Below, in pieces: positions 7,894 to 26,994 of a DNA stretch of 64,000 nucleotides; position 1 is the first letter of the stretch, and every line of letters begins with the position of its first letter. The translations under genes were made by a program, and so were the position numbers. The DNA is from Hydrurus foetidus (Eukaryota). The stretch is from assembly GCA_900617105.1 (NCBI GenBank), contig UYFQ01000506.1, positions 1-64,000 on the forward strand. Direction: 5' to 3'. Under the pieces are notes generated by a model, which saw only the letters and a program-made list of their open reading frames with translations, made no database searches and was not told where the DNA came from.

Positions 7894-9679
7894 TCAGGCG
7901 ATGGTGCGGGCGTCGGCCTGATGATCCCGGGAAGATAGGATCCGGGTCAGGGCTTCGGCCAACCGCGTCACCTCGATGGGCTTGGCCACCAGGCCGTCCA
8001 TGCCGGCGTCTGCATAGAGGCTTTGCTCATGGCTCATTACGCTGGCGGTCACAGCCAGGATCGGCGTGCGCGGTTGGCCGGTGCGCTGCTCTGGCGGATG
8101 GTCCGGCTGGCCTCGACGCCGTCCATGATCGGCATGTGGATGTCCATTAGGATGGCGTCCCAATGTCCGTCTTGCCACATCGTCACGGCCTGCTGCCCAT
8201 CGACGGCGCTCTGGCCCTGAATGCCCAGGTGGCTCAGCAGGGTCAGCAGGACCGTGCGGTTGGTCTCATTGTCGTCGACGATCAGGATGCGTGAGGGGCG
8301 AACGTCATCTCGGGCCTCGATCACCATGTCCGGGGCTACGCCCTGAACGGCTTCGATCCGGCGCATGGCTGTATCGAAAGTGAACTCGGTGCCACCGCCG
8401 GCAGGGCTGGAAAAGTCGATTTCCCCCCCCATCAGACCGACCAGATCCTTGCAGATGGCCAGGCCCAGACCCGTGCCGCCGGCTCGCCGGGTGCTGGAGC
8501 CGTCAAGTTGCGAGAACTTCGAGAACACCAGGTCGCGCTGCGCCTCGGGAATGCCCACGCCGCTGTCCTTGACTGAAAAGATCAGGGTCGTGGCGTCGCC
8601 CTTGACCGTCACCTGAACAGCCCCGGCTTCGGTGAACTTGATCGCGTTGGAAATCAGGTTGCTCAACACCTGACGCAGGCGCTCGCAGTCGCCCATGCGC
8701 CAGCCCATCACGTCGGGCGCGACGTCGAGTGAAGGCCAGGCCCGCTCGCGCGCCAGGCCGCCGTACAGCTGGCCCATCGCATCGACAAGCGCGTCCAGAT
8801 GGAAGGGAGCGGCGATGATTTCGATCTTGCCCGCCTCGATCTTGGAGATGTCGAGGATGGCGTTGATAACGCCGAGCAAGGACTGGCCCGAAGCGGTGAT
8901 GATACCCAGATGGCGGCTCTGTTCGGCAGACAGCTCGCCGGCCGCCATGATCTGGGCCATGCCCAGAACGCCGTTTAACGGTGTGCGGATTTCGTGGCTC
9001 ATGATGGCCAGGAACTCGGTCTTGGCCCGGTTGGAGCCTGGGCGCTCAGGGCCAGAGCCTGGGTCTCGCATTGCAGGCGATGGTTTTCCTCGAGCTTGCG
9101 CTCAAGCTCGGTGTTGAGGGTTTCGCTGGCCAGGCGTGCGTGGACCTCGCGCTTGACGCGCCGCGCACCCGGCGGACATGCCAAGGGCGGCGAACGCGCC
9201 GGCCATCCCCATGAACATGTACTGGGCAATCATGTCGCCGGGGGCCTTGCGGGCCATCAGGAACAGTCCCGTCATCGCCAGGGCGACACTGATCAGCGCC
9301 ACCCGGCGGGTCGGGGCCGAGGCCGCAAACACCAGCGCCATCAGCACGAAATAGACCAGTTTCTGGGGTTCCAGGTGCAGCGTGTGGTGGGCGATGACAT
9401 TGGCCAACGACAGGCCGTTCATCCCCAGGACCACGGCCTCCAGCCGCCAGCCGGTCCAATGTCCGCGCCCCAGGCCCAGCCAGGCGACAAAGGCATAGGC
9501 TGCCACCGTCACCGACAGGCTACCCAGGATCAGCAGGTTCGAGGGGTTTCATAGAATGGATGCGAGAGGCTGATCACGCAGTAGTACACGGCCGCCGCAA
9601 TCAGATAGCCGCGTACGATCGGTACATAGGCCTGCATCAGGGCGGCCTCTGCGGGCCTTGATGTTGAGGTGATCGGCAA
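7894..9679 (-). CDS. Membrane hybrid sensor histidine kinase/response regulator (frameshifted)
   Basis: N-terminal TM helices, MSHEIRTPLNG H-box, NLISNAIKF, GGTGLGL, REC domain (DDN, LMDIHMP, AKP). Confidence 0.85.
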
Positions 9680-9786
9680 CGCCAAACCCTGTCTAGGACG
9701 TCAAGTGTTCCGCCAGTGCACCTTCTGTAGTCGAGGAAGAGTTAAGTCTTGGCCCAGGCCATGACTGAGACCTGTCAACTCAGGCT

Positions 9787-10338
9787 CTAGACACCGCTCA
9801 GCGCCAGTCCCGGCGCATCTGGATTTCGGGCTCCGCCGCCGTTCAGAGGGCGCTGCATCCATACCAGATCGACCCATCGGCCAAATTTGAAGCCCATGGC
9901 GGGGAAAACCCCCTGTTTTGCAAAGCCCATCGCCGCATGCAGGCCGATGGAGGCGCTGTTGCCGCTATCGCCGATCACCGCGACCATCTGACGCAGCCCC
10001 AGCGCTTCACAGGCCTCGATCAGCGCGGCCAGCAGGGCGCGGCCCACGCCCTGTCCCACGGCGTCTGGCGAAATATAGACGCTGTCCTCGACCGTGTAGC
10101 GATAGGCGGCGCGCAGACGGAACGGGCCGGCATAGGCATAGCCCAGCACGACCCCGTCCCGTTCGGCGACCAGATAGGGCAGGCCGCGATCGAGGAACGT
10201 GGCGCGGCGACGGGCCATCTCGTCCTGCGCGGGCGGGTCTTCCTCGAAGGTGCCCAGGCCGTTGCGGACATTCCAGCCATAGATGGCAGTGATCGCCGCC
10301 AGGTCGGCGTCGGTCGAGGGGCGGACGGTGAGGGTCAT
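9787..10338 (-). CDS. GNAT N-acetyltransferase (phosphinothricin/YncA-like)
   Basis: AYRYTVEDSVY, GQGVGRALL, NSASIGLH, GFKFGRWVD. Confidence 0.9.
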   Translation of the reverse strand: MTLTVRPSTDADLAAITAIYGWNVRNGLGTFEEDPPAQDEMARRRATFLDRGLPYLVAERDGVVLGYAYAGPFRLRAAYRYTVEDSVYISPDAVGQGVGRALLAALIEACEALGLRQMVAVIGDSGNSASIGLHAAMGFAKQGVFPAMGFKFGRWVDLVWMQRPLNGGGARNPDAPGLALSGV

Positions 10339-10341
10339 TGG

Positions 10342-10463
10342 AAAGTCCTCCCCCCGATGGGGGAGGCGGGCCGCAGGGCCGGAGGGGGAAGTGATCCCCG
10401 CCGTTGGCTGACTTCCCCCACCGTCGGCTTCGCCGACACCTCCCCCTTCAGGGGGAGGACCTT
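10342..10463. repeat. GC-rich palindromic intergenic repeat (family A, copy 1)
   Basis: Terminal inverted repeats GTCCTCCCCC...GGGGGAGGAC with nested hairpins; similar to 59498-59622. Confidence 0.85.
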
Positions 10464-10477
10464 GAAGTCAGGCACCC

Positions 10478-12644
10478 TTAAGCCTCCCAACCCTTGTCCA
10501 CCGCCCAGACCGCGAAGGCGTAGTCCAGGGCGATCTCCTTGAGGAAGTCGAACCGGCCCGAGGCCCCGCCGTGGCCGGCGTCCATGTTGATCTTCAGCAG
10601 GACGGGCCGGCCGCTGGTGCTGGCCGGGCGCAGCTTGGCCACCCACTTCTCGGGCTCCCAGTAGGTGACGCGCGGGTCCGACAGACCGCCCGTGGCCAGC
10701 ACCGCCGGATAGGGCTTGGCCTCGACATTGTCATAGGGGCTGTAGCTGGCGATGTAGTCATAGGCCGCCGCGTCCTCCAGCGGATTGCCCCATTCGGGCC
10801 ATTCGGGCGGGGTCAGGGGCAGGGAGGTGTCGCTCATGGTGTTGACCACGTCGACGAAGGGCACTGCGGCGATGATCCCGGCGAACAGGTCGGGCCGCAT
10901 GTTGGTGATCGCCCCCATCAGCAGGCCGCCGGCCGAGCCGCCATAGGCCACGGTATTGGCAGGCTTGCCGTAGCCGGCCCCATGCAGGTGCTCGGCGCAG
11001 GCGATGAAGTCGGTGAAGGTGTTCTTCTTCCTGTCCTTCTTGCCGTCCAGGAACCAGCTCCAGCCCTTTTCAGAGCCGCCGCGCGGGCAGGCCGTGGCCC
11101 AGATCCAGCCGCGATCCACCAGCGAGAAATTGCGGATCGAGAAGCTGGCCTCCATCGAGATGCCGTAGCTGCCGTAGCCGTAGAGGAGCAGCGGCGCCGA
11201 GCCGTCCAGCTTTGTGCCCTTCTTCATCAGGATGAAGACCGGCACCTCTGTCCCATCGCTGGCCTTGGCGTTCAGGCGGCGGGTCTCGTACTGGCTGGGA
11301 TCGTGGCCCGAGGGGATTTCCTGGGTCTTGCGCAGGGTCCGCTCGCGCGTCGCCATGTCGTAGTCGAACCACTGCCGGGGCGTGGTCATGGAGTTGTAGA
11401 CGAAGCGCACCGTGGTGGTGTCGTACTCGTAGCCGCCCTCCAGGCTCAGCGCATAGGCGGCCTCGTCGAAGTCGACGACGTGCTCCTCGCCCGCTTTCGC
11501 CGTGATGACGATGCGGTTGACCGCGTCCACCTTTTCCAGCCGCGCGAAGTGGTTCTGGAAGGCGATCATGCCGACGATCAGCCGGCCGGGCGTGTGGGCC
11601 ACCCAGTCCTTCCAGTGGGTCTTGCCGGGCGTGGCTTGTGGCGCGGTGACCAGCTTCCAGTCGACGGCGCCGTCGGCGTTGGTGCGGATCACGAAGTGGT
11701 CGTTCCAGTGGTCCAGCTCGTAGCGCAGGCCGACCTGGCGCGGCTCGACGACCACCGGCTTGGCGGTCGGGTCGCCGGCCGGGATCAGCAGGGTCTCGCT
11801 GGTCTCCTGGTTGCCGCAGCTGATGACGATGAACGTCTCGGACGACACCGTGCCGACGCCGATGAAGAAGCCTTCGTCGGGCTCGTCATAGATCAGCACG
11901 TCGTCCTTGGCGCCGCCGCGGGCCGGGCGGCGATGGATGCGAGCGGGCGGCCATTGTCGTCCCGGAAGGTCCAGAACAGCCACTGGCTGTCGGGCGAGAA
12001 GCAGAAGTCGCCGGTGGTGCTTTCGACCGGGCTTTCCAGCACCGCGCCGGTCGCCAGGTCCTTGACGTGGATGCGATAGACTTCCGAACCCTGCTCATCG
12101 ATCGCAAAGGCATAGAGCCTGTGGTCCGGCGAATGGCTGGCGGCGCCGACCTGGTAGAAGGCCTTGCCCTTGGCCTCTTCGTCCAGCAGGATCTGCTCGG
12201 CCCCGCCGCCCCTGGGCTTGCGGGCATGGATCGGGTGCTGCGCCCCGGTCTCGAAGCGGGTGTAGTATTCCCACAGACCGTCGGGGGCGGGGACGGAGGC
12301 GTCGTCCTGCTTGATGCGGCCCTTCATCTCCTCGAACATCGCCGTCTGCAGCGCCTCGGTCGAGGCCAGCATGGCCTTGGTGTAGGCGTTCTCGGCGGTC
12401 AGGTGTTCCTTGACGTCGGCCTTGATCAGCGACGGGTCGCGCAGGACCTTCTGCCAGTTGTCGTCCTTCATCCACGCATAGTCGTCGGTCCGCACCCGGC
12501 CCAGCTGCTCGATGCGCTTGGGCTCCCTGGCGACGGCGGGACGGGGCGAGCGGCTTTGGATGCGGACATGGAGATCCCGGGAATGAAAACTGGACTTGAA
12601 GTAAGCACGGCGGCCGCGCTCGTCATCATCTGACGTCGGTTCAT
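10478..12644 (-). CDS. ptrB: S9A oligopeptidase B (protease II) with twin-arginine-like N-terminus (frameshifted)
   Basis: DDYAWM, YGYGSYG, GGSAGG, DPRV, AGHGG. Confidence 0.9.
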
Positions 12645-12786
12645 GATGCTTGTTTCCCCCACCAACGCGTAAACGACCTCTGCGTCAGATCGCCAGCTTG
12701 CGGGCCATGGCAGGTCTGGTCAAACTTATCTGGCGAAGCGCACCGACGATGCGCCCAGCGGGGTGAGTAAAAGAGTAGGGGCGACG

Positions 12787-13635
12787 ATGGTTTACGACCT
12801 GTCCGTCGATCTGATCCAGGCGACGGTTCAGCTTGAGCAGCCGCTCAAGGACGGTTCGCGAACGGTCGGCACCGGGTTCCTGATCGCCGACATCGATCCC
12901 GACGGCAAACCCCGCACCATCCTGATCACCGCCGCCCACGTCTTTGACCGCATGCCGTCGTTCTCGGCCAAGATCGGCTACCGCATCCAGTCCCGTGACG
13001 GCGTCTGGCGCTATGATCCCCAGACCCTGAAGATTCGCGACGGCGACCATCCGCTGTGGGTCAAGCACGCGGGGCGCGATGTCGCCGCCCTCGTGGTCGA
13101 GGCGCCGCCGGAATTCGCCAAGGCGGCGATCCCGCTGGCCTGGCTGGCCAAGGACGACACCTTCAGCCAGTACAAGCTGGGCCCGGGCGACGAGATGATG
13201 GCCCTGGGTTTCCCGCGCGGCCTGTCGGCCAATCCGGCCGGCTTTCCCATTCTGCGGTCGGGCCGCGTGGCCTCCTATCCGCTGGCCCCGGCCACCGCCT
13301 TTCCGACCTTTCTGATGGATTTCTCGGTCTTCCCCGGCAATTCGGGCGGACCGGTGTTCATGGCTGAGGGCGCGCGCCGTCGGCCGGGCGCGACCGAAAG
13401 CCAGGAAGTGCAGTTCATCGCCGGCATCCTGACCCAGCAGGTCGAGCTGTCGGGCGAGCGGCTGGAGATCGGCATCGTCACCCACGCCAAATATATCCGC
13501 GAGACCATCAGCCTGCTGGGCAAGCCGTCGCCCCCGACGGCAGCCGCACGGTCCACCCGGATCGAACCGATGGTCGAGGGCGCGACGGCCGCCTCGGCTG
13601 CGGTCTCGGCCAGCGCCATGGGCGTGGGACGCTAG
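12787..13635 (+). CDS. Trypsin-like serine protease
   Basis: GTGF, ITAAHV, DVAAL, GNSGGP catalytic motifs. Confidence 0.85.
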   Translation: MVYDLSVDLIQATVQLEQPLKDGSRTVGTGFLIADIDPDGKPRTILITAAHVFDRMPSFSAKIGYRIQSRDGVWRYDPQTLKIRDGDHPLWVKHAGRDVAALVVEAPPEFAKAAIPLAWLAKDDTFSQYKLGPGDEMMALGFPRGLSANPAGFPILRSGRVASYPLAPATAFPTFLMDFSVFPGNSGGPVFMAEGARRRPGATESQEVQFIAGILTQQVELSGERLEIGIVTHAKYIRETISLLGKPSPPTAAARSTRIEPMVEGATAASAAVSASAMGVGR

Positions 13636-13643
13636 AAGGGCTG

Positions 13644-13669
13644 GGAACCTTTGCTTGAGCGGAGCCGTT
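13644..13669 (+). promoter_or_regulatory. SigT/EcfG general-stress promoter of csbD
   Basis: GGAAC-N17-CGTT upstream of the CsbD start. Confidence 0.75.
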
Positions 13670-13704
13670 CTTGTGGGGACATTCACCCCAACAGGAGCAC
13701 AGCC

Positions 13705-13887
13705 ATGAGCACCAATCGTGTTGAAGGCGCTATCGACAAGGGCGTCGGCGCAACCAAGGAAGCGATCGGCAAGGCGACAGGCAATGAACGCCTCGAAGCC
13801 GAAGGCCTGGCCCAGAAGGCCAAGGGCGACATCCAGAACAAGGTCGGCCAGGCGCAGGACGCCATCGGCGACGCCATCAAGAAGTAG
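13705..13887 (+). CDS. csbD: CsbD family stress protein
   Basis: KEAIGKATGNERLEAEG..KAKG; AGGAG RBS. Confidence 0.9.
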   Translation: MSTNRVEGAIDKGVGATKEAIGKATGNERLEAEGLAQKAKGDIQNKVGQAQDAIGDAIKK

Positions 13888-13911
13888 GGTCCGGTCCCGA
13901 CCAGACTGACG

Positions 13912-13948
13912 AACGGCCCCGGGCGCGATCCCGGGGCCGTTTTCGTTT
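13912..13948 (+). terminator. Intrinsic terminator after csbD
   Basis: AACGGCCCCGGG-loop-CCCGGGGCCGTT followed by T-rich tail. Confidence 0.8.
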
Positions 13949-14013
13949 CAGGGCTCTACCCGATGACGTCGGAGGTAATGGCGCGTCGGCCAAGCTCGAC
14001 CTAACTTGCCGTC

Positions 14014-14799
14014 ATGACCACCACCGTCCTTACCATCGGCGAGCGTCTGCGCGACTGGCGTCAGCGGCGCCGGCTCAGCCAGCTGGACCTGGCCTGCGAG
14101 GCCGAAATCTCGACCCGGCACTTGTCGTTCCTGGAAACCGGCCGCGCCGCGCCGAGTCGCGACATGGTGCTGCGCTTGGCCGAGGGGCTGGGCGTGCCGC
14201 TGCGCGAACGCAACGTCCTGCTGCTGGCCGCCGGCTTTGCGCCGCTGTTCCCGGAACGGTCGCTGGACGATCCGGGGCTGGAGGCCGCCAAGATCGCTGT
14301 CGAGACGCTGCTGGCGGCCCATATGCCGTTTCCGGCCCTGGCGATCGACCGGCGATGGACCCTGCTGGCCCACAACGCTTCGGCGGGGCTTCTGCTGGAG
14401 GGCGTCGACCCGAAGCTGCTGGAGGGGCCGGTCAATATGCTGCGCCTGAGCCTGCACCCCGACGGCGTCGCGCCTCGCATTGTCAATCTGGCCGAGCTGC
14501 GCGGCCACATCCTGTCGCGCCTGCGCCGGGAGCTGGCCGAGAATGGCGACGCGGGTCTGGCCGACCTGATCCGCGAGTTGTCGGCCTATCCTGGTGGCGA
14601 GGCCCATCCTCGCGGCGGCGAGGGGATGATCGCCGTGCCCCTGCGGCTGAACACGCCCTTGGGCGAACTGTCGTTCCTGACGACCACAATGACCTTCAGC
14701 GGCGCGCTGGACGTGACCGTGTCTGAACTGACGATCGAGACGTTCCTGCCGGCCGATCCCGCCACGGCCGCCGCTCTGCGGGGCGTGGCGGGAGGCTGA
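14014..14799 (+). CDS. XRE-family HTH regulator with MmyB-like ligand-binding domain
   Basis: LSQLDLA..ISTRHLSFLETGRAAPSR; HMPFPALAIDRRW; ELTIETFLPAD. Confidence 0.85.
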   Translation: MTTTVLTIGERLRDWRQRRRLSQLDLACEAEISTRHLSFLETGRAAPSRDMVLRLAEGLGVPLRERNVLLLAAGFAPLFPERSLDDPGLEAAKIAVETLLAAHMPFPALAIDRRWTLLAHNASAGLLLEGVDPKLLEGPVNMLRLSLHPDGVAPRIVNLAELRGHILSRLRRELAENGDAGLADLIRELSAYPGGEAHPRGGEGMIAVPLRLNTPLGELSFLTTTMTFSGALDVTVSELTIETFLPADPATAAALRGVAGG

Positions 14800-14803
14800 G
14801 GGT

Positions 14804-15253
14804 TTAGGCCCCGTAGATGATCGAGATGGTCTCGGCCACGCAGGCGGGGCGCTCTTCACCTTCGATTTCGATGGTGCACTCGTTCTTCATCTGCAGGCCG
14901 CCCGATTTGGGCTCGGCGCTGAGCAGCTTCTGGCGCATGCGCACGCGCTTGCCGACCCGGACCATGCCGGTGAAGCGGACCTTGTCGCAGCCGTAGTTGA
15001 TGCCGCGCGTCACGCCGGTGACGTGCAGGATGCCGGCGCCCAGCATCGGGATCAGCGACAGGGTCAGATAGCCGTGGGCGATCGGGCCACCGATTTCCCG
15101 GGTGGCGCGCTCGACATCGACATGGATCCACTGGTGATCACCGGTGGCCTCGGCGAACTGGTTGACCCGCTCCTGGCTGATCTCGACCCAGTCCGAAACA
15201 CCGATTTCCTGACCAACCAGGCTGGCGATATCCGCATAGGCGACTTGTTTCAT
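14804..15253 (-). CDS. MaoC family dehydratase
   Basis: FAEATGDHQWIHVD, IAHGYLTLS, NYG.DKVRF. Confidence 0.9.
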   Translation of the reverse strand: MKQVAYADIASLVGQEIGVSDWVEISQERVNQFAEATGDHQWIHVDVERATREIGGPIAHGYLTLSLIPMLGAGILHVTGVTRGINYGCDKVRFTGMVRVGKRVRMRQKLLSAEPKSGGLQMKNECTIEIEGEERPACVAETISIIYGA

Positions 15254-15648
15254 GGCGTTCTCCCAAACACGTCTTGTGCAAACAGTTGTTTGATTGATCC
15301 CATGGCGCGGCGCATCCGGCAAGGTCGAGGGCTGGCATTGTCTGGCATGGGCCGCCCGCAGCAGGGCCTGCGGTGTGTCAATTGGACACAGCCGGGCCGT
15401 CGGCGAGCCAGATTGTGTCGCGGCCTTTCCCGGAAAATCCACGAACAAAATGAATATCCATTAGTATAAATGAAAACTTAATAGATAACTCAATGTTTAC
15501 AATTGAGGAGTTTTCGCCATCAAAAATGAGCGATCTGTTCAAGCGGGCTGATTTTCTTGATCTAACAGGGTTAGTGGAAATTTACACTTCAGGCTGTTTC
15601 GGGGATTTCTGAGCAATACCGGAAATGGGGAGCGCCTTTGCCGTGCGG

Positions 15649-15664
15649 TGGCATGCGCCTTGCG
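15649..15664 (+). promoter_or_regulatory. Putative sigma54 (-24/-12) promoter
   Basis: TGGCAT-N5-TTGCG (GG-N10-GC) about 40 nt before the ATG at 15706; AT-rich block upstream. Confidence 0.6.
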
Positions 15665-15705
15665 AAGTACCATTCGCCGAATGTTCGGCTTAGTGGAGAA
15701 AACAG

Positions 15706-16311
15706 ATGAACCGCACCATCCTGCTCACTATCGCAGCCCTGGCCGTCGCTGGTACTGCCCAAGCTCAAACGATCAACAATGGCCAAACCAACAGCTCGAA
15801 TATTCGCGCCAAGCTCAATGCGACGGTCAGCGATGTTCAAGACAAGGTTGCCCTGACTGCGGCTGGTATCGGCAACAGCGTCACTCTGGAAGGCGCCACG
15901 GCCAACACCATCAACAATACGCAGCGCTTCTTCGGCGATGTTTCGTCTGAGCTGAACGCGACCGTCCGCAATGTTGGCAAGAGCGTCGACGCGACTTCGG
16001 CGGCGATCGCCAATACCGCTTCGATCAAGGCCGACTATGTCAACGTCGTGAACAATGTTCAGTACGCCAACTATGATCCGACCGCCGTCCTCAACGCCAC
16101 CCTGACCGATATCAGCGGCGAAGTGAACGCGACCGCTGCAGCGATCAGCAACACGGCCACCATCGAAGCCGATCTGGGCCAGGTCAACTCGACCCAGATC
16201 AACTACGCCGCCGTCAACGCCACCGCCAACACGACCATTCGCAATGTCAGCGACTCGGTCTCGGCGACGGCCGCAGCCATCGGCAACACCCTGTCCGTCA
16301 AGGGTTTCTAA
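15706..16311 (+). CDS. Secreted Asn/Thr/Ala-rich protein with four ~46-aa repeats (HfaD/curlin-like candidate amyloid subunit)
   Basis: Sec signal ending AQA; repeats N[NS]xQ..LNAT..VxATxAAIxN x4; no Cys; RBS GGAGA. Confidence 0.75.
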   Translation: MNRTILLTIAALAVAGTAQAQTINNGQTNSSNIRAKLNATVSDVQDKVALTAAGIGNSVTLEGATANTINNTQRFFGDVSSELNATVRNVGKSVDATSAAIANTASIKADYVNVVNNVQYANYDPTAVLNATLTDISGEVNATAAAISNTATIEADLGQVNSTQINYAAVNATANTTIRNVSDSVSATAAAIGNTLSVKGF

Positions 16312-16319
16312 GTCGGCAC

Positions 16320-16354
16320 AAGGACGCTCGTTGAGCGCTCGCGAGCGTCCTTTA
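16320..16354 (+). terminator. Intra-operon stem-loop after the repeat-protein gene
   Basis: AAGGACGCTCG...CGAGCGTCCTT followed by TA. Confidence 0.6.
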
Positions 16355-16402
16355 CTCCCGCTTTCAGCCGCGCCTTTTCCATCCTCTTCCAGGACCTGTC
16401 CC

Positions 16403-16840
16403 ATGCTCAAGATGTTCACGCCGGCCCTGACCGTCGCCCTGATCGCCCTGCCTGTTCAGGGCGGAGCGCAGACCCTGGGTCGCGACGGAATCGGCAGCCT
16501 CGAAGCCGGCTACGGCAATGCCCGGGCCATGGAGACCGAGCGCTTCAATCCTTCCACCCGCGACAGCCAGGGCAACCGCATCATCAAGGATGGTGTGATC
16601 CAGAGCGGCGTCGGCGGCAGCCAGATCACCACCAACACCAATAGCGCCGTCTATGGCGCGGCCTTTTTCGAGAGCGGCGCCAGCAACAGCGCCACCGCGA
16701 TCGGCAATCTGGTCAATGTCACGGTTGAGGGATCGAACAATACGGTCGTGCTCAACAGTGTTCAGACCAATACCGGATCGGTTTCGGCCACGGCTGTTCT
16801 CAATGGCTCGGCCGCCAAATCGACCGGGTCCAGCCAGTAG
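16403..16840 (+). CDS. HfaA-like (holdfast anchor family) secreted protein
   Basis: Signal peptide; STRDSQGNRIIKDG; SATAIGNLVNVTVEGSNNTVVLNSVQTNTGSVSA. Confidence 0.75.
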   Translation: MLKMFTPALTVALIALPVQGGAQTLGRDGIGSLEAGYGNARAMETERFNPSTRDSQGNRIIKDGVIQSGVGGSQITTNTNSAVYGAAFFESGASNSATAIGNLVNVTVEGSNNTVVLNSVQTNTGSVSATAVLNGSAAKSTGSSQ

Positions 16841-16882
16841 CCTCCCGACGAACGCCCTCGGTCTCATAAGGAAACCAGCACC

Positions 16883-17722
16883 ATGTTGATCGCTCGCGCC
16901 CTGGGGGCCGCAGGCCTTGCGGCGGCGATCCTCGCCGTTGCGCCGCCGAGCCTGGCTGCCGAAGCGGGCGGTGACTATGCGCGGCCGATCGGCGATGCGC
17001 CGGCCACCCGCAACCCGACGCCCTATACGCCGGCCCTGATCTGCCTGGCGCGCCAGCCGCTGAGCCGGCCGATGCCGCGCATCTCGGTCGGACGGATCTC
17101 TGACATGACCGGCAAGTCCGACTTCGAGACCGGCGCCAAGATCAGCCAGGGGGCCTCGCTGTTTGCGATCACGGCGCTCGGCAAGGCGGGCTTTCCGGTG
17201 GTCGAGCGGCTGGACAATTCCGTGGCCGAGATCGAGCTCAACTATGCCCGCCAGCGCCTGCTGTCCGACACGCCCGAACTGGCCGGCAGCAGCGGTGACA
17301 ATTTCCGCCGCATCCTGGCCGGTCAGATCGCCGGCTCGTCCTACTATATCGTCGGCGGCATCACGGAGCTGAACTACAACATCCGCTCGACCGGCGCCGA
17401 CGCCCAGATCGGCGACCGGGGTTTGAATGGTGTGCGGGCCGGCGCGGCGGGCCAGACCTATGTGCTCAATATCGCCATCGATCTTCGGCTCGTAAACTCA
17501 CGCTCCCAGGAGGTGGTCGACATGGTCTCGTATCAGAAGCAGCTGGTCGGACGCAGTCTTGACCTTGGCCTGACCGCCGGAGATGACCGGATCGGCGCAG
17601 CAGCCTCCTATGGCCGCAGCGGCATGGAGCCGATGCAGGCCGCCGTTCGCACCCTGGTCGAGCGCGGCGTGTTCGAGATGATCGCCGGCTTCCGTGGGGG
17701 AGGCGAAGAATCTTTGCCTTGA
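16883..17722 (+). CDS. CsgG/HfaB family outer-membrane secretion protein, paralog 1 (no lipobox; C-terminus probably frameshifted, may extend to ~17803)
   Basis: PIGDAP..NPTPY..ALICL, VGRISDMTGK, VVER, YIVGGITELNYNIRS, IAIDLRLV, SYQKQ, EPMQ.AVR. Confidence 0.85.
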   Translation: MLIARALGAAGLAAAILAVAPPSLAAEAGGDYARPIGDAPATRNPTPYTPALICLARQPLSRPMPRISVGRISDMTGKSDFETGAKISQGASLFAITALGKAGFPVVERLDNSVAEIELNYARQRLLSDTPELAGSSGDNFRRILAGQIAGSSYYIVGGITELNYNIRSTGADAQIGDRGLNGVRAGAAGQTYVLNIAIDLRLVNSRSQEVVDMVSYQKQLVGRSLDLGLTAGDDRIGAAASYGRSGMEPMQAAVRTLVERGVFEMIAGFRGGGEESLP

Positions 17723-17802
17723 TCCGGTAACCGAACCGCAGGGCCCGCGCTCCCGGCCTATGCGGCCTCGCGGACCGTTCAAGCCCAACCGAGGACCTGG
17801 TG

Positions 17803-18857
17803 ATGTCTCAAGACCTGGGCCTGATTGCCGGCCGTCACAGTGCACGGATCGCCGCGACCCTGGTCGCGCTGATGCTGGCCGGCTGCGCCTCGACCACAGC
17901 CGACAAGGTCACGGGTCTCTATGCCCAGCCCATCGGCGACGCCCCTGCGACCACCAATCCGACGCAGTATTCGTCGGCCCTGACCTGTCTGGCGTCGAAT
18001 GCCGCCGCGACCGGGCGGGCGTCGCCCCGGGTGGCGGTCGGCGCCATTGCCGATCTGACCGGCAAGCGCGACATCACGACCGGGGCCAAGGTCAGCCAGG
18101 GCGCGTCGCTGTTCGCGATCAGCGCCCTGGGCAAGGCCGGCCTGCGGCTGGTGGAGCGGAGCGATCGGGGCATTTCCGATACCGAACTGGCCTATGCCCA
18201 GAACCACACCCTGTCGGACTCTCCGGAAAAGGCGGGCTCCGACCCCGAAAACTATCGCCCCATCTATGCCGGACAGATCGCCGGCTCTGACTTCTACATT
18301 GTCGGCGGGCTTACGGAGCTGAACTACAATATCCGCTCGTCGGGCGTGGATGCGCGTGGCGGTGATGTGGGGACGGGCGGGCTGAAGGGGTCGCTGACCG
18401 GCAGCACCTATGTGATCAACATCGCCATCGACATGCGCATGGTCGACTCCCGCTCGCAGGAGATCATCGACATCACGTCGTACCAGAAGCAGATCATCGG
18501 CCGGGAGATCAAACCCGGCGTGTTCGACTTCTGAACGGCAATGTCATCGACGTGTCCGGCGGCAAGAGCGAGCTGGAGCCCATGCAGCTGGCGGCCCGCA
18601 CCCTGGTCGAGCGCAGCATCTATGACTTCGCCAGCACGCTGCTGCAGGTCAAGCCGACCCAATGCCTGAACGAGCAGGGTGACGGCGCCCGGCCTCGCCA
18701 GGCGCGCCCCGTCCAGAGCGTCCAGGCCCCGCCAGTTGCCGCGCCGGCGCCCAAACAGGCCGCTCCGGCGGTCGCCGCGCCAGCCTACAACGGCCCGTAC
18801 CTGGATCGCTCGCGCTGGCTGGCCCCGGACCGGGGCGCGGCTCCCAACCGGCCCTAG
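17803..18857 (+). CDS. CsgG/HfaB family lipoprotein, paralog 2 (frameshift near 18531)
   Basis: LAGC lipobox; same CsgG/HfaB motifs as paralog 1; restoring one base joins DF[L]NGNVIDVSGG..EPMQLAARTLVER. Confidence 0.85.
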
Positions 18858-18867
18858 GCCCTAGGCT

Positions 18868-20389
18868 CTAGGTCTTGGCCCAGTAGGCATCCCGGATCAG
18901 CCGCTTGTAGAGCTTGCCCGTCGCATGGCGGGCAGCTCCTGCATGAAGTCGATGCGGCGCGGCGATTTCACGTGGCTGAGATTGGCGCGCACGAAGGCCA
19001 TCAGCTCGTCGGCGAGATCAGAGTGATCCTCGGCCCAGGCCAGGGGCTGGATCACCGCCACGACCTTTTCGCCCATCTCCTCGCACGGCGCCCCGACCAC
19101 GGCGGCGTCGGCCACCATGGGGTGGGTGATCAGCAGGTTCTCGATCTCCTGCGGATAGATGTTCACCCCGCCGCTGATGATCATGAAGCTCTTGCGGTCG
19201 GTCAGGTAGAGGTAGCCCTCCTCGTCGACCCAGCCCACGTCGCCCAGGGTGGTCCAGCCGTGCTGGTTGTAGCTCTCGGCGGTCTTGTCCGGGGCGTTGT
19301 GATAGTTCACCGCCGGGCCGTTGGCGAAATAGACCGCGCCCTCGGTGCGGGGCGGAACGGGATTGCCGTCCTCATCGCAGATGCGCAGTTCGCCCAGCAC
19401 GGCCTGGCCGACGCTGCCCTTGTGGGTCAGCCAGTTCTGCGAATTGATCCAGCAGAAGCCGTTGCCCTCGGTGCCGGCATAGTATTCGAAGATCGCCGGG
19501 CCCCACCAGGCGATCATCTGTTCCTTGACCGGAACCGGGCAGGGGGCGGCGGCGTGGACGGCCGATTGCATCGACGAGACGTCGTACTTGGCGCGGGTCT
19601 CTTCGGGCAGTTTCAGCATCCGCACGAAGTGGGTCGGCACGAACTGGCCGCAGGTGACCTTGTACTTTTCGATCAGGGCCAGGGCGGCCTCGGGATCGAA
19701 CTTCTCCATCACGATCACCGTGCCGCCCAGCTTGTGGACGCTCATGCACCAGCGCAGCGGCGCGGCGTGATAGAGCGGGGCGGGGGACAGATAGACGCTG
19801 TCACCACTGAAGCCGAACAGGCCCTGGGCCATCATCTGCAGGGCGTTGGGCTGGTCGATCGGGCCGCCGTTCAGCGCCGGCTTGACGCCCTTGGGTCGGC
19901 CGGTGGTGCCCGACGAATACAGCATGTCCGAGCCGGCGCTCTCATCGGCGATCGGGGTGTCGGGCATGGCGGCGCGGGCCGCCTCGAAGTCGGCATAGGC
20001 GCCATGGGCGCCGCCCACCGTGTAGAGTTTCAGGCCCGGAACCAGCGCGGGGATTTCGTCGATCAGCGACCCCATCGCCACCGAGGTGATGAACACCTTG
20101 GCCCCGCAGTCCTGCAGGATGTACTGGGTTTCGGCCGCCGTCAGCTTGGTCGAGACGCAGACATAATAGAGCCCCGCGCGCTGGGCGGCCCAGGCGATCT
20201 CGAAGAACCGGGCATTGTTCTCCATCAGGATGGCGATGACGTCGCCGGTCTGCAGGCCCAGCGAGCGCAACAGTTGCGCCCCTGGTTGGAGCGGGCGTCC
20301 AGCTGGCCGTAGGTCACGACCTCGCCGGAGCCGGCCATGATGTAGGCGGGCTTTTGCGGTTGTGTCTGGGCGTGGATGAAGGGGTGCAT
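18868..20389 (-). CDS. Acyl-CoA synthetase (AMP-binding; frameshifts near both ends)
   Basis: YSSGTTGRPKG, EYYAGTE, TLGD, DRKSFMIISGGVNIYPQEIE. Confidence 0.9.
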
Positions 20390-20424
20390 GCCGGAAGCCT
20401 CGGATGACTTTGTTGGAGATTTGA

Positions 20425-20443
20425 TCTAGATTGCTTGTCTAGA
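20425..20443. promoter_or_regulatory. Probable vapBC autoregulatory operator
   Basis: TCTAGA-N7-TCTAGA dyad just upstream of the vapB RBS. Confidence 0.5.
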
Positions 20444-20453
20444 AACGGAGGTT

Positions 20454-20753
20454 GTGGTGGCGCTCAGCATCAAGACCGAAGAAGCCGACCGCCTGGCGCG
20501 CGACCTGTCCCGCCTGACCGGCGAGACCATGACCCAGGCCGTGACCGTGGCCCTGCGCGAGCGGCTGGAGCGCGAGCGGGCCGCCAAGACCGAGACGACG
20601 GAAGAGTTCGTCGCGCGGATCATGGCGTACACAGCCAAGATGCGAGAAGGAGTCGACTGTCGGCCGATCACGCCTGAAGAGTGGCTGGACGCTGGCGGCG
20701 ACGACCTTGACCATGAGCTTGCCGCCAAGGAAAAGGCCCAGGCCCAGCGCTGA
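20454..20753 (+). CDS. vapB: VapB antitoxin (Rv0623-like)
   Basis: [41 protein letters not shown] coupling to vapC. Confidence 0.85.
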
Positions 20754-21140
20754 TGGTCATCGACACCTCGGCGATCATCGCCATCATCCTTGGCGAGACC
20801 GCTGAGCCGCGCTTGCTCGCAAGAATCGAGGCCGCGAGCGTTCGCGAACTGTCGATGGTCAGCTATGTCGAGGCTGCCACCGTCTTGCTGGCGCGGAATA
20901 TGCCTGGCGCGGCTTGAAGGCTTGCATGGAACGTCTCGCCATCATCCTGGTCCCCGTCGACGAGGCCCAGGGCGCGCCGCCATCAGGGCCAGGATGGCGT
21001 ACGGCAAGGGCACGGGCCATCCCGCCAAGCTGAACCTCGGCGACACCTTCACCTATGCCCTGGCCAAGGTGCGCGGCGCGCCGCTGCTGTTCGTGGGCGA
21101 AGATTTTTCCCATACCGATCTCGTCTCCGCCCTGGCCTGA
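20753..21140 (+). CDS. vapC: VapC PIN-domain toxin (frameshifted)
   Basis: [43 protein letters not shown]. Confidence 0.85.
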
Positions 21141-21142
21141 TT

Positions 21143-22810
21143 TCACGCCGCGACGGGGGTCTTGGCGGCCTGCAGGATCATGGCCGCGCCCTTCTCGCCG
21201 ATCATGATGGTGGGGGCGTTGGTGTTGCCCGAGACCAGGCGCGGCATGATCGAGGCGTCGACGACCCGCAGGCCGTCCACACCGCGCACCCGCAGCTGGG
21301 CGTCGACCACGGCCATGGGCCCGCTGCCCATCGCGCAGGTGCCGACCGGGTGATAGAGGGTCGAGCCCGAGGCCTTGGCATATTCGAGCAGCATCTCGTC
21401 GCTCTCGAAGCCGGGGCCGGGGTTCATCTCCTGCTCGACATATTTGGCGATGGCCGGCTGCTCGCCGATCTTGCGCGCCCATTTGAGGCCGGCGATCGCG
21501 ACCTCCTGGTCCAGCGGATCGGCCAGATAGTTGGCGACGATGGCCGGATACTGCGACGGATCAGCTGACTTGATATGGATCGTGCCGCGGCTTTCCGGGC
21601 GCAGCTGGCAGGGCGCGATGGTCATGCCTGGCGCGTCCTCCAGCTCCATCTTCTGCTCGTTGAACAGCTTGTCCAGATCCATGGTGGCCGGCAGGATGTG
21701 GAACTGGATGTCCGGGCCTGACAGATCGGGCCGGGATTTGCAGAAGGCGGCGACATGCGCCGCCGACAGGGTCAGCAGGCCCTTGCGGAACAGCACATAT
21801 TTCAGCGCCTGGCCCGCCAGTTGGGCGCCCTTGCTCATGGCGTTGATCGACGGCGCGCCGGCCTTCAGGCGGTAGCGCACGCCGGTCAGATAGTGGTCCT
21901 GCAGATTCTCGCCGACGCCGGGAAGGTCGGAAACGACCGCGATGCCGCGCTGGCGCAGCAACTCGCCATTGCCGATGCCCGACAGTTCCAGAAGCTGGGG
22001 CGAATTGATCGCTCCGCCGGCCAGGATCACCTCGGCCCGGGCCTTGGCGGTGCGCTTGACGCCGTTCTGCACGAATTCGACGCCGGCGGCGCGCTTGCCC
22101 TCGAAGATCACGCGGCTGGCCAGGGCGTTGGTTTCGACCTGCAGGTTCGCCCGCTTCATGGCCGGGTGCAGATAGGCGACAGCGGCCGAGCAGCGCGCGC
22201 CGTTCTTCTGGGTCACCTGATACCAGGTGGCGCCTTCCTGATCCTTGCCGTTCAGGTCGTCATAGCGGGGGATGCCGGCCTGGTCGCAGGCCTCGATCAG
22301 GGCCTCTGAAATGACGTTGCCGTCGCGCATGTCGGAGACGTTCAGCGGGCCGCCGGTCGCGTGCAGGTCGCTGGCCCCGCGCTCCTGGTTCTGCGACTTG
22401 CGGAACCAGGGCAGGACGTCGTCCCAGGCCCAGCCTTCGCAGCCCAGCTGGCGCCAGCCGTCATAGTCGGCCTGCTGGCCGCGCACATACAGCATGGCGT
22501 TGATCGAGGACGAACCGCCCAGCACCTTGCCGCGCGGCCAGACGTGGGCGCGCCCGCCGGTGCCCGGATCGGGCTCGGTGGTATAGAGCCAGTTGACCTT
22601 GGGGTCCTTGAGGGTCTGGGCATAGCCGACCGGGATGTGGATCATCAGGTTCGAGGCGAACTGCGAGAGGTTCTTGGTCGGCCGATCATCGCCGCCGGCT
22701 TCCAGCAACAGCACCTTGAAGCGACCATCCTCGGAAAGCCGCGCGGCCAGAACGCAGCCGGCCGAACCGGCCCCGACGATGATGTAGTCCGCCTCGATGG
22801 TCGCGCTCAT
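21143..22810 (-). CDS. GMC oxidoreductase (choline/alcohol dehydrogenase-like)
   Basis: [37 protein letters not shown]. Confidence 0.92.
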
Positions 22811-23047
22811 CGCTCTCTCCCTAAAGCGCGCTTGGGCGCGCTGCATTTTTTATGTTTAGAGCCCGTCCATGCGGAAAGGCTCGGGGCCGTCTGCGTGTGT
22901 CCGCATGATCGGCGTTCACTCACAATGCGCAGGTCTGGGCCGAACGCAAAGCCTCACCTTGCGTCAGTTGCCGTCGCGGCGCCGTTGGCGCGCCATGTTT
23001 AGGCGCTATCGTCCCACCCACAGAACGACGTTCCCGGGAGACGATGC

Positions 23048-24382
23048 GTGGATTTGATCAGCCAGACAGTGGTGGACGGCAAGGCCGGTCCTGGAGCGGG
23101 AACCACCTATCCGACCCTGCCCGATATCGACCTCGCCGACATCTTCCGCTTCGCCAAGGGTCAGCCCTTCGCCGACTATGCGCGGATGCGGGTCGAGGCG
23201 CCGGTGATGTGGCATGCCGAGCCCTATGGCGGGCCGGGCTTCTGGGCGGTCACGCGGCATGAAGACGTGATGAGCGTCAACGGCGACCCGACCACCTATT
23301 CGTCGCAGCGCGGCGGCATCCTGATGGCCATGGGCCCGCCCGACCGCCGTCACGCCCTGCTGTTCCGGGCGTCGATGGACACCATGATCAATCTCGACGC
23401 GCCGCATCACCTGCAGCTGCGTCGCGAGCACATGCCCTATTTCACCCCGTCCTATCTGCGCGGGATCACCGAGGCGGTGAAGGGTGAGGTCACGCGGCTG
23501 CTCGACGCCATGGAGCCGCTGCTGGAAGGCGGCGCCACCATCGACATGGTCGAGCACTTCTCCAGCGTGCTGCCGCTGTTCACCCTGTGCGAGATCCTGG
23601 GCGTGCCGCCCGAGGATCGCCCCCGGTTCCTCAAGTGGATGCACTATCTGGAGCGCGCCCAGGATCTGGCCGTGCAGCAGGCTGCGGCCCCGATCACCCC
23701 GACGCTTGAGCTCATGCAGTTCGTCATGGACTTCAACAACAACGTCGAGGAGATGTTCGACTACGGCCGGATGATGCTGCTCAAGCGGCGTGAGGATCCC
23801 AAGGAAGACCTGCTGACCGCCATTGCCCGGGCCCAGGTGGACGGCGCCCTGCTGGCCGACGAATATCTGGACGGCTCATGGCTGCTGATCGTGTTCGCGG
23901 GCAATGACACCACGCGCAACACCCTGTCGGGCGCGATGAAGCTGCTGACCGAGTTCCCGGACCAGAAGCAGGCGCTGATCGACAATCCTGGCCTGCTGGG
24001 CGGCGCGGTCGACGAGTTCATCCGCATGGTCAGCCCGGTGATCTACATGCGCCGCACGGCCACAGCCGATGTCGAGCTGAACGGCCAGATGATCCGCGAG
24101 GGCGAGAAGGTCATCATGTACTACGGCGCGGCCAACCGCGATCCGGAGGTGTTCCCCGAGCCCGACCAGCTGGACGTGCGCCGCAAGAACGCGGCCAAGC
24201 ACATCGCCTTCGGCTACGGTCCCCACACCTGCATCGGCAAGCGTGTGGCCCAGATCCAGCTGGAAGAAGCCTATCGCCAGATCCTGGCCCGCTTCCCGGA
24301 CCTGAAGGCCACCGGCGAGATGGAGATCGCGCCCAACAACTTCGTGCACGCCATCAGCAAGCTGATGGTCAAGCGGGGGTAG
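23048..24382 (+). CDS. Cytochrome P450
   Basis: AGNDTT I-helix, EFIR (ExxR), FGYGPHTCIG heme ligand. Confidence 0.95.
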   Translation: MDLISQTVVDGKAGPGAGTTYPTLPDIDLADIFRFAKGQPFADYARMRVEAPVMWHAEPYGGPGFWAVTRHEDVMSVNGDPTTYSSQRGGILMAMGPPDRRHALLFRASMDTMINLDAPHHLQLRREHMPYFTPSYLRGITEAVKGEVTRLLDAMEPLLEGGATIDMVEHFSSVLPLFTLCEILGVPPEDRPRFLKWMHYLERAQDLAVQQAAAPITPTLELMQFVMDFNNNVEEMFDYGRMMLLKRREDPKEDLLTAIARAQVDGALLADEYLDGSWLLIVFAGNDTTRNTLSGAMKLLTEFPDQKQALIDNPGLLGGAVDEFIRMVSPVIYMRRTATADVELNGQMIREGEKVIMYYGAANRDPEVFPEPDQLDVRRKNAAKHIAFGYGPHTCIGKRVAQIQLEEAYRQILARFPDLKATGEMEIAPNNFVHAISKLMVKRG

Positions 24383-24428
24383 TGTCCAACCCCTCCGGAT
24401 CGCGTCGCGCTTTCCGGAGGGGGCAGGG

Positions 24429-25331
24429 CTAGACGGCCGGCGGCCTGGCGAACTGGCCGGCGCGCCAGGCCATCCAGGTGACGCCAAGGCCGATGGCGGT
24501 GCAGACCACCAGGGCCGGCAGCGAGGCCTCGGGGCCGAAGGCGCCGCCGGTCAGCCATTCGGGGAAACCCGGGCGCGCCGTGCTCGACGCCATCGCGGGG
24601 CCGAAGTCGCCGCCGGACACAGCGGCGCCGAACAGATAGCCCTGAGTGAAATTCCAGGCCGCGTGCACGCCGATCGACATCCAGACCCGCCCCGTCAGCG
24701 CATAGAAGGCGCCCAGCATGATCCCGGCCTCCAGCGCGATGGCGATGGCCGCGAACACGGTCGCGTTCGGATTGGGCAGGTGGCCAAAGCCGAACAGGGC
24801 TGCGGAGATCGCGAAGGCCACCCAGGGGCCGAACGCCCTCCAGGTCAGGCGCAGCAGGATGGCGCGGATCATGATCTCCTCGATCACGCCGGACTGAACG
24901 GCCTTGCCGATGGCGATCCAGGCGGGCGCGGCGCCGAGGGCCCGGATGTCATAGAGGCCGAACACGGCCATGATCGCCATCACGGCGGCGAACATCGCCA
25001 CCCCGATCAGCAGGCCCGCAACCAGTTGCGGAAGAGCGGGTCGCCAGGCGATCTCGGACGGCCAGCGTCCTTCGGCCAGTCGTACCGCCAGGGCATAGAC
25101 CCCCAGCCCCACCAGCACCGCCACGATATTGGCCGCCAGCTGCGCCGCGCCGGACGTCTTGGGCAAGGCCTTGCCCAGGGCTTCGCCTGTCGACAGCGAC
25201 GCCAGGGCGATCAGGAAGAACAGCGCCAGGGCCCAGCCGAGGGCCCTGAGCCAGCGCAGCGGTCCGGGATGCAGAAACCGGCGCTCGCCCAGCTCAAGGG
25301 GGTGGGTCCAGCGCGTCATATCGATCTTCAT
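24429..25331 (-). CDS. CPBP/CAAX family intramembrane glutamic endopeptidase
   Basis: EEIMIR, FGFGH, HAAWNF. Confidence 0.85.
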   Translation of the reverse strand: MKIDMTRWTHPLELGERRFLHPGPLRWLRALGWALALFFLIALASLSTGEALGKALPKTSGAAQLAANIVAVLVGLGVYALAVRLAEGRWPSEIAWRPALPQLVAGLLIGVAMFAAVMAIMAVFGLYDIRALGAAPAWIAIGKAVQSGVIEEIMIRAILLRLTWRAFGPWVAFAISAALFGFGHLPNPNATVFAAIAIALEAGIMLGAFYALTGRVWMSIGVHAAWNFTQGYLFGAAVSGGDFGPAMASSTARPGFPEWLTGGAFGPEASLPALVVCTAIGLGVTWMAWRAGQFARPPAV

Positions 25332-25858: not shown

Positions 25859-25865
25859 CCAGATA

Positions 25866-25887
25866 ATGTATAAGCACTGTTATATAT
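25866..25887. promoter_or_regulatory. AT-rich dyad, probable MarR operator
   Basis: ATGTATAA-N6-TTATATAT immediately upstream of the MarR start. Confidence 0.45.
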
Positions 25888-25990
25888 CGTCAAGGCGCGA
25901 TCGAGCGTGTCGCACGCAAGTCTGGGGAGAAGGAACGTTGCCCCAATTTCATACGCATGTTTGACTGACCTAAAATCAGGAGGAACACCC

Positions 25991-26875: not shown

Positions 26876-26994
26876 CGCAGTTTGGTCGCGGTTCGGCGTC
26901 ATCGTGTCGCGCACGCCGAACCGACCCGCTCATCGGACGTTAATGAGGATCTGATCAGTTCGGGATGACGGCTGATTTGACCGTCAGGATCACC

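What the first reader, a model, noticed from the sequence alone, without database searches (positions are those of the whole stretch)
15440..18857. Candidate new curli/holdfast-anchor-like fibre system: repeat subunit + HfaA-like + two CsgG/HfaB pores
Seen: a compact four-gene operon between metabolic genes, with a sigma54-type promoter, a secreted 4-repeat protein, a stem-loop, an HfaA-like protein and two tandem CsgG/HfaB homologs. Established: CsgG is the curli (type VIII) secretion pore. The Caulobacter hfa operon is ordered hfaA-hfaB-hfaD with a single HfaB, and HfaA/HfaD have amyloid-like properties. Here the order, the short repeat protein placed first, the duplicated pore and the absence of csgE/csgF or hfs genes match neither system. 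Inference: an independent functional-amyloid/surface-fibre export system built from hfa-family parts.
Basis: partly seen in the sequence, partly recalled or inferred. Interest (0 to 1): 0.87.

Follow-up and report, generated by a model that had tools for sequence, protein, structure and literature searches.

The report
Second holdfast-type fibre export operon
About one in ten genomes of the Caulobacter family carry, besides their normal glue-anchoring genes, an apparently undescribed second gene set; it likely exports a small repeat protein through a curli-type channel, here predicted to be built from two unlike subunits, and likely assembles it into an amyloid-like surface fibre.

Summary
The four genes are real; both pore genes carry frameshifts that look like sequencing errors. 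The window's genome is not held, but the nearest complete genome (G001) has this operon intact plus a separate hfaABD. The cassette (short HfaD-like gene, hfaA-like, one or two hfaB) occurs in 23 of 251 Caulobacteraceae genomes, each with another hfaB elsewhere. Its two HfaB copies form old sister clades apart from canonical HfaB. The first copy has lost the aromatic membrane-hairpin motif (0 of 15) and lacks a lipobox (12 of 15, 3 ambiguous); the second keeps them (15 of 15; 14 of 15). The lead protein is a four-repeat HfaD-family member, predicted all-beta (pLDDT 90), with FapC and CsgA as nearest, weak, fold matches. A sigma54-type motif and a hairpin after gene 1 are conserved. Best reading: accessory curli-like fibre export (0.6); rival: auxiliary holdfast anchor (0.25). 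Polymer formation and subunit binding are untested. The parts belong to known families, so this is a new variant, not a new kind. The scan noted related HfaB modules on other DNA before, including an unlipidated/lipidated pair.

The parts
15374..15390 (.). Perfect inverted repeat (6 bp arms, 5 bp spacer), 332 bases upstream of gene 1; candidate regulator site, for this operon or for the divergent maoC-like gene
   Evidence: Conserved in the window and 4 close relatives; only such site in the window; among 22 loci, present at this position only in the window, L004 and L012, which share the maoC context
15440..15640 (.). AT-rich upstream region (39% GC vs 67% for the window), poorly conserved
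   Evidence: GC; diverged between close relatives
15649..15663 (+). sigma54-type -24/-12 promoter motif, 57 bases before the gene 1 start
   Evidence: Only strict match in the window; conservation begins sharply at the motif; best motif at -43 to -72 in 20 of 22 loci, per-locus shuffle p <= 0.05 in 18 of 22
15706..16311 (+). Gene 1, 'HfaD2': 201-aa secreted protein, signal peptide plus four 42-46 aa Asn/Gln-patterned repeats; short HfaD-family member; predicted major fibre subunit
   Evidence: HfaD model 23.5 bits vs cut-off 100; profile match to HfaD 97.8%, E 1e-12; AF2 pLDDT 90, all-beta; FapC/CsgA best fold matches
16320..16353 (+). GC-rich hairpin after gene 1; predicted attenuator or mRNA stabiliser giving an excess of gene 1 product
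   Evidence: 18 of 22 loci at z <= -2
16403..16840 (+). Gene 2, HfaA-family secreted protein (145 aa) whose C-terminal part resembles one HfaD2 repeat; predicted nucleator/adaptor
   Evidence: NF037934 80.9 bits vs cut-off 50; weak profile match to HfaD2, probability 57%, E 1e-4
16883..17803 (+). Gene 3, HfaB' (CsgG family): no lipobox cysteine, aromatic motif of hairpin 2 lost. Reads to a stop at 17722 in the window because of a frameshift near 17698; 307 aa in G001
   Evidence: NF037935 379 bits; frameshift; lipobox, motif; AF2 model of the G001 copy keeps both hairpins and matches CsgG, E 2e-15
17803..18857 (+). Gene 4, HfaB'' (CsgG family lipoprotein) with lipobox, aromatic hairpin motif and a Pro/Ala-rich tail ending in a conserved motif. 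Split at about 18530 in the window; 351 aa in G001
   Evidence: NF037935 350 bits plus 32 bits on the second piece

Best explanation
This is a second, accessory operon of HfaD, HfaA and HfaB family genes that likely works like curli, exporting the short repeat protein through a CsgG-type channel so that it likely polymerises into an amyloid-like fibre or coat on the cell surface. Shown: the gene set, its family assignments, its presence beside a separate hfaB locus, and the split of the pore into a lipidated and an unlipidated clade. Inferred steps: (1) a sigma54-type promoter drives one transcript, and the hairpin after gene 1 leaves HfaD2 in excess; (2) Sec exports HfaD2, HfaA2 and HfaB' to the periplasm, while HfaB'' goes to the outer membrane as a lipoprotein; (3) HfaB'' supplies the lipid anchor and membrane-inserting aromatics, and HfaB' joins it, either as a mixed ring (about 45%) or as a periplasmic ring or cap in the place of the missing CsgE (about 35%); (4) HfaA2, with its one repeat-like rung, stays at the pore and nucleates or tethers HfaD2, doing the job of CsgB/CsgF; (5) HfaD2 beta-solenoids stack into a fibre used for adhesion or aggregation.
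For: Cassette in 23 of 251 Caulobacteraceae genomes, 5 of 25 genera (24 hits, G020 was canonical HfaD). D-A-B order in 19 of 20 fetched loci. Each of the 23 has a further HfaB elsewhere; A-B-D order confirmed in 20 of them. Canonical HfaB forms one side of a branch, 99/94; HfaB' plus HfaB'' form a clade, SH-aLRT 95, with matching branching in both copies. Promoter motif and post-gene-1 hairpin are conserved. AF2 gives an all-beta repeat fold; the top matches are FapC (Foldseek E 3.8e-4) and CsgA fibril (Z 7.3). Repeat number varies from 4 to about 13 at these loci, and extra subunit copies occur (L013, L064), as for CsgA (PMC3521004 passages). No other gene is conserved around the cassette, including holdfast synthesis genes. 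[quoted passage not shown] Non-lipidated CsgG forms a soluble pre-pore ring (PMC4389571).
Against: Fold matches are weak: Foldseek TM-score 0.15; VIA Z 7.3 at rmsd 8.2 and Z 5.9 at rmsd 3.2 over 112 residues, in the range the tool calls possibly a common arrangement. All 23 carriers also have another hfaB locus, where about 185 of 251 genomes pass the HfaB cut-off. That hints at dependence on the holdfast or its regulators, though kin are not independent. Four-repeat HfaD forms occupy the ordinary third position of hfaABD operons in 6 other alphaproteobacterial genomes, so short length does not by itself mean a free fibre. The canonical hfaA has the same sigma54-type motif in 5 of 7 loci checked, and I recall (no call) that hfaA transcription was found not to need sigma54. 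With outgroups, canonical HfaB has only SH-aLRT 65 support. No expression level, localisation or polymer data exist.
Confidence: 0.6

Rival explanations
1. The cassette is an auxiliary holdfast anchor: short HfaD2/HfaA2 polymers at the pole or stalk tip tether the holdfast polysaccharide under conditions where the main anchor is not enough, or anchor a second polysaccharide.
For: All parts are Hfa-family members. All 23 carriers have another hfaB locus. Short HfaD forms are the third gene of canonical-order operons elsewhere. The promoter motif is shared with canonical hfaA.
Against: A redundant anchor would not need the subunit placed first with a hairpin behind it in 22 of 22 loci, nor varying repeat number and extra subunit copies. 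No polysaccharide genes travel with it. 228 of 251 family genomes searched lack it.
Confidence: 0.25
2. The cassette exports HfaD2 as a non-amyloid beta-solenoid adhesin or surface-layer-like protein that stays monomeric or forms small oligomers at the pore.
For: Beta-solenoid folds are common among monomeric adhesins, and filamentous-haemagglutinin-type domains score Z 4.5-5.0, close to FapC at 5.9. [quoted passage not shown]
Against: The protein is only signal peptide plus repeats, with no capping domain. Gln/Asn positions are invariant or nearly so. The channel family secretes unfolded amyloid subunits (PMC4389571).
Confidence: 0.12
3. The locus in this window is a decaying duplicate: both pore genes are truly frameshifted.
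For: Both hfaB genes are broken as the window reads. Run X1, the closest match, has no contig over either break.
Against: G001 and L009, L011, L012 have both genes intact. Contigs of X2, X4 and X5 restore both frames. X1 itself fills a similar 1-base gap at 18929 in the neighbouring gene. 1-base deletions are scattered through unrelated genes of the window.
Confidence: 0.03

Closest known systems
Caulobacterales holdfast anchor HfaA-HfaB-HfaD (with HfaE)
   Same: All three protein families (HfaA and HfaB above NCBIfam cut-offs; HfaD by profile match); same repeat type; sigma54-type motif upstream; CsgG-type lipoprotein channel.
   Different: A second locus in the same genomes; order D-A-B(-B) instead of A-B-D; HfaD-like protein with 4 repeats (about 200 aa) instead of about 8 (about 410 aa); hairpin after the subunit gene; two diverged HfaB copies in 15 of 23 genomes, one unlipidated; patchy and at unrelated chromosomal sites.
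Curli / type VIII secretion (CsgA, CsgB, CsgE, CsgF, CsgG)
   Same: CsgG-fold channel; small secreted all-repeat beta-solenoid subunit with variable repeat number; a second, minor secreted partner.
   Different: No curlin repeat; no curlin or CsgF match in 5 carrier genomes; repeat of about 45 aa rather than about 22 (curli length recalled); two unlike channel subunits, where CsgG is a homo-nonamer.
Pseudomonas Fap amyloid (FapC)
   Same: Best Foldseek match; imperfect repeats with conserved Asn/Gln, each forming one layer (PMC12392863 abstract).
   Different: Low TM-score (0.15); no linkers between repeats; export through a CsgG-type channel rather than FapF (recalled); no Fap Pfam match.

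Membership tests
Holdfast anchor hfaABD | HfaA family member | tested here: met
   NF037934 80.9 bits vs cut-off 50
Holdfast anchor hfaABD | HfaB family member | tested here: met
   NF037935 379 and 350 bits vs cut-off 300
Holdfast anchor hfaABD | Full HfaD equivalog | tested here: not met
   23.5 bits vs cut-off 100; homologous by profile comparison; the true HfaD lies elsewhere in 5 of 5 carrier genomes
Holdfast anchor hfaABD | Gene order hfaA-hfaB-hfaD, conserved in Caulobacterales (10.1101/523142) | tested here: not met
   D-A-B(-B) in the window and 19 of 20 fetched loci
Holdfast anchor hfaABD | HfaB orthologous to canonical HfaB | tested here: not met
   Both copies fall outside the 20-row canonical group (99/94); mean identity to canonical 46-48% vs 69% within canonical. 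Canonical support falls to 65 with outgroups, while HfaB'+HfaB'' stay together at 95
Holdfast anchor hfaABD | Needed to retain holdfast at the pole | not testable with these tools
   Needs deletion mutants
Curli (type VIII secretion) | CsgG-fold channel | tested here: met
   PF03783; alignment to CsgG chains; fold match E 2e-15
Curli (type VIII secretion) | CsgA/CsgB curlin repeats | tested here: not met
   No PF07012 on the five ORFs or in 5 carrier genomes; control rings in E. coli
Curli (type VIII secretion) | CsgF (CsgE not searched genome-wide) | tested here: not met
   PF10614 in 0 of 5 carrier genomes; many alphaproteobacterial curli loci also lack csgE/F (PMC3521004)
Curli (type VIII secretion) | Cross-beta amyloid fibre on the surface | not testable with these tools
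   Only a monomer model was made
Fap amyloid | FapC-like fold of the subunit | tested here: inconclusive
   Foldseek E 3.8e-4 but TM 0.15; VIA Z 5.9, rmsd 3.2, 112 aligned
Fap amyloid | fapA-F operon with FapF channel and FapD peptidase (recalled) | tested here: not met
   Only D, A and B genes are conserved at 23 loci
sigma54-dependent promoter | -24/-12 GG-N10-GC motif at a fixed distance (consensus recalled) | tested here: met
sigma54-dependent promoter | Transcription needs RpoN and an enhancer-binding protein | not testable with these tools
   No activator gene is conserved nearby

The most novel reading that the evidence does not exclude
A third class of proteobacterial functional amyloid, beside curli and Fap, built from HfaD-type 45-residue repeats and exported through a two-component CsgG-type channel in which an unlipidated paralog co-assembles with, or caps, the lipidated pore. 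The holdfast anchor would then be one specialised use of a wider fibre system.
Probability: 0.35. Interest if true: 0.82.

Novelty: new variant of a known kind. Interest (0 to 1): 0.6.

Why it matters
How holdfast is tied to the cell is still open, and no close solved structure of an HfaD-type repeat turned up. A 180-residue, four-repeat paralog that is probably made in bulk is a far easier object for ThT assays and cryo-EM than the polysaccharide-bound anchor, and named isolates carry it (C. henricii CCUG 49339, Caulobacter sp. ErkDOM-C and ErkDOM-E). If it forms fibres, Caulobacter-family bacteria have a protein adhesion system missed because most species lack it. A CsgG-type channel of two unlike subunits would depart from the homo-nonamer known for curli.

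Tried and rejected
Window's own genome: not held, so its canonical hfaABD is inferred from relatives. Complex prediction of HfaD2 with HfaA2 was not available; nothing was folded, so binding and stacking are untested. The wide VIA fold search never ran, and the protein atlas did not answer. The name of PF27277, carried by 14 of 15 homologs, could not be looked up. No plasmid match for HfaD2, so mobility rests only on patchy presence, unrelated neighbours and tree discordance (G197 groups with G031 of another genus for HfaB'). RNA-library contigs touch all four genes but cannot show transcription or rank genes; not used as evidence. The consensus scan found no sigma70 promoter or classical terminator at the operon ends beyond chance. 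The upstream inverted repeat was rejected as a general cassette element (3 of 22 loci). G020 was dropped as a canonical HfaD hit; G084 has two canonical-type hfaB and no HfaD2. The 9 single-pore HfaB rows are rejected as one clade (p-AU 0.002); all accessory HfaB together are not rejected as a clade but not shown (p-AU 0.43). Rows left out of trees: L047, L013, L054 as duplicates, and 11 more near-duplicates. Two papers asked for by id were not held.
Full report
Observation. The window holds four same-strand genes at 15706-16311, 16403-16840, 16883-about 17803 and 17803-18857, between a MaoC-like gene and an AMP-binding enzyme gene. Gene 2 passes the NCBIfam HfaA cut-off; genes 3 and 4 pass HfaB; gene 1 scores 23.5 bits on HfaD against a cut-off of 100. 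Gene 1 is a signal peptide plus four repeats of 46, 46, 45 and 42 residues. The nearest complete genome, G001 (97% identical over the operon), has them whole at 307 and 351 aa. Contigs of 3 of 4 DNA runs laid on the window carry the missing bases; the fourth (X1) does not cover the breaks. Single-base deletions also hit neighbouring genes. I treat these as read errors.

Is it the only hfa locus? The window's genome is not held. G001 has three HfaB matches: two in this operon and one in a separate hfaA-hfaB-hfaD. In 251 Caulobacteraceae genomes, 191 had an HfaB match and 24 matched a profile of gene 1. One of these, G020, was a canonical HfaD, leaving 23 genomes in 5 of 25 genera. All 23 have a further HfaB elsewhere. 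I fetched that locus for 20 of them, G001 included, and found A-B-D each time; G083, G145 and G210 were not fetched. Of 20 fetched accessory loci, 19 show D-A-B; in L054 no hfaA ORF was detected. 15 of the 23 genomes have two hfaB at the locus (in G139 the second is upstream and divergent) and 8 have single-pore loci. No other gene is shared across 23 loci beyond generic kinases and near-kin synteny. Named carriers are Caulobacter sp. VAR_39, ErkDOM-E, ErkDOM-C, C. henricii CCUG 49339, isolate MiH-16 and one further MAG. That scan returned no C. vibrioides record, but it finds close relatives only.

The two pores are not equivalent. In a tree of 59 HfaB rows, canonical (20), first-copy (15) and second-copy (15) rows each form one side of a branch, with support 99/94, 100/98 and 87/60. 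With outgroups, first and second copies are sister groups (SH-aLRT 95) with matching internal branching, while canonical support drops to 65. The copies are about 48% identical. The first copy has no cysteine in its signal region in 12 of 15 rows; 3 are ambiguous. The second copy has a lipobox in 14 of 15, canonical rows in 20 of 20, single-pore rows in 9 of 9, one read by eye. The G-x-F-x-F/L motif of hairpin 2 aligns with the matching aromatic stretch of CsgG; placing it in the membrane-spanning part is from recall. It is present in 20 of 20 canonical, 15 of 15 second, 7 of 9 single and 0 of 15 first copies. Yet HfaB' keeps both hairpins at full length in an AF2 model of modest confidence (pLDDT 66) and matches CsgG. 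Non-lipidated CsgG is known to form a soluble pre-pore ring, and CsgE caps the periplasmic face (PMC4389571, passages). So HfaB' likely depends on HfaB'', as a ring partner or a cap. I looked at lipidation after an earlier scan note (e1-4181087) described such a pair elsewhere.

The subunit. Gene 1 is a short HfaD homolog (profile probability 97.8%, E 1e-12). Relatives at these loci have 4 to about 13 repeats, and 327 cluster representatives match at E <= 0.001, up to 1089 aa long among the 150 listed. AF2 gives an all-beta model at pLDDT 90 in four of five models. The only Foldseek hit under E 0.001 is FapC, with a TM-score of just 0.15. A second aligner ranks CsgA fibril (Z 7.3, rmsd 8.2), SufD-type chains (5.9) and FapC (5.9, rmsd 3.2) on top. 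That places it among amyloid-type solenoids but does not show a polymer. Against over-reading: in 401 Alphaproteobacteria, 13 matched; of 11 loci fetched, 6 have a short HfaD in the ordinary A-B-D order. HfaA2 ends in a stretch like one repeat (weak, probability 57%). No curlin or CsgF was found in 5 carrier genomes.

Regulation. The sigma54-type motif at 15649 is unique in the window. It lies 43-72 bases before gene 1 in 20 of 22 loci, and beats shuffles at p <= 0.05 in 18 of 22. The canonical hfaA has the same motif in 5 of 7 loci checked, and I recall, without a call, a report that hfaA does not need sigma54; function is therefore open. A GC-rich hairpin follows gene 1 in all 22 loci (18 at z <= -2). 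This is the layout expected for a major subunit made in excess.

Mechanism and rivals. Best: curli-like export and polymerisation of HfaD2, nucleated or tethered by HfaA2, through an HfaB''/HfaB' channel (0.6). Rivals: auxiliary holdfast anchor (0.25), favoured by the presence of another hfaB locus in all carriers; non-amyloid adhesin (0.12); decay (0.03). It works like curli but fails curli membership (no curlin repeat, no CsgF). It is built from Hfa families but fails the canonical operon on order, HfaD length and HfaB orthology.

Literature. Ten full-text searches returned no paper describing a second hfa locus, a short HfaD or paired HfaB, judged from listings and the passages read. Seen: PMC6707917 passages; 10.1101/2022.07.20.500906, first of six parts and passages; 10.1101/523142 passages, which call hfaABD order conserved and used reciprocal best hits, a method that hides paralogs; PMC3521004 passages; PMC4389571 passages; PMC12392863 abstract; PMC12700997 passages and a term search of 4 supplementary files, no hit. 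Subscription papers and bioRxiv supplements were not visible and could mention the locus. Earlier scan notes describe related HfaB modules in other genomes, none found by sequence similarity to gene 1; they are unchecked leads.

Verdict. Real, conserved and apparently undescribed: a new variant of the Hfa/curli kind.

Noticed in passing
window 20454-21140: A VapB-type antitoxin gene (PF07704) and what looks like a PIN-domain partner, seemingly frameshifted, lie in a roughly 750-base stretch absent from G001 (gap in the alignment).
   Followed up: partly
window 8400-27100: Many 1-base deletions relative to G001, often in homopolymer runs, break genes such as the oligopeptidase (about 11945-12170) and the AMP-binding enzyme (18929); the assembly looks like unpolished long reads.
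   Followed up: partly
window 15330-15648: The upstream region diverges strongly between close relatives while coding DNA is 97% identical; conservation resumes exactly at the -24 motif, with a second conserved block near 15567-15602.
   Followed up: partly
L061:6716-8053 (G139): HfaB' with a long Gln/Tyr/Pro-rich low-complexity C-terminal tail; its partner HfaB'' sits upstream on the opposite strand.
   Followed up: no
L058:3841-5763 (G057); L059; L056: Single-pore loci whose subunit has about 5 to 13 repeats (up to 640 aa ORF).
   Followed up: no
L102:3300-7008 (G559); L103:5295-6707 (G308): Outside Caulobacteraceae: two tandem HfaD2-like genes, in G559 transcribed divergently from hfaA-hfaB, in G308 with no hfaA/hfaB within the 12 kb fetched.
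   Followed up: no
L050, L051, L055, L063 gene 1: A subgroup of subunits carries a conserved N-terminal two-cysteine peptide before the repeats; L061 has other cysteine pairs.
   Followed up: no
gene 4 C-terminus, window about 18790-18825: Most second HfaB copies end in a conserved Tyr-x-Gly-Pro-Tyr-Leu-Asp-Arg-x-x-Trp motif after a Pro/Ala linker; canonical HfaB has a different conserved Trp-containing tail, and single-pore copies lack one.
   Followed up: no
G222 C1 and C4 (L013-L015, L017, L040, L044): The same single-pore locus appears three times with identical scores; real duplication or assembly redundancy not resolved.
   Followed up: no
L111 (G567), L112 (G542): Distant CsgG/HfaB-type genes followed by acidic secreted proteins with weak HfaD2-type repeats; in G567 the pair is duplicated in tandem.
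   Followed up: no
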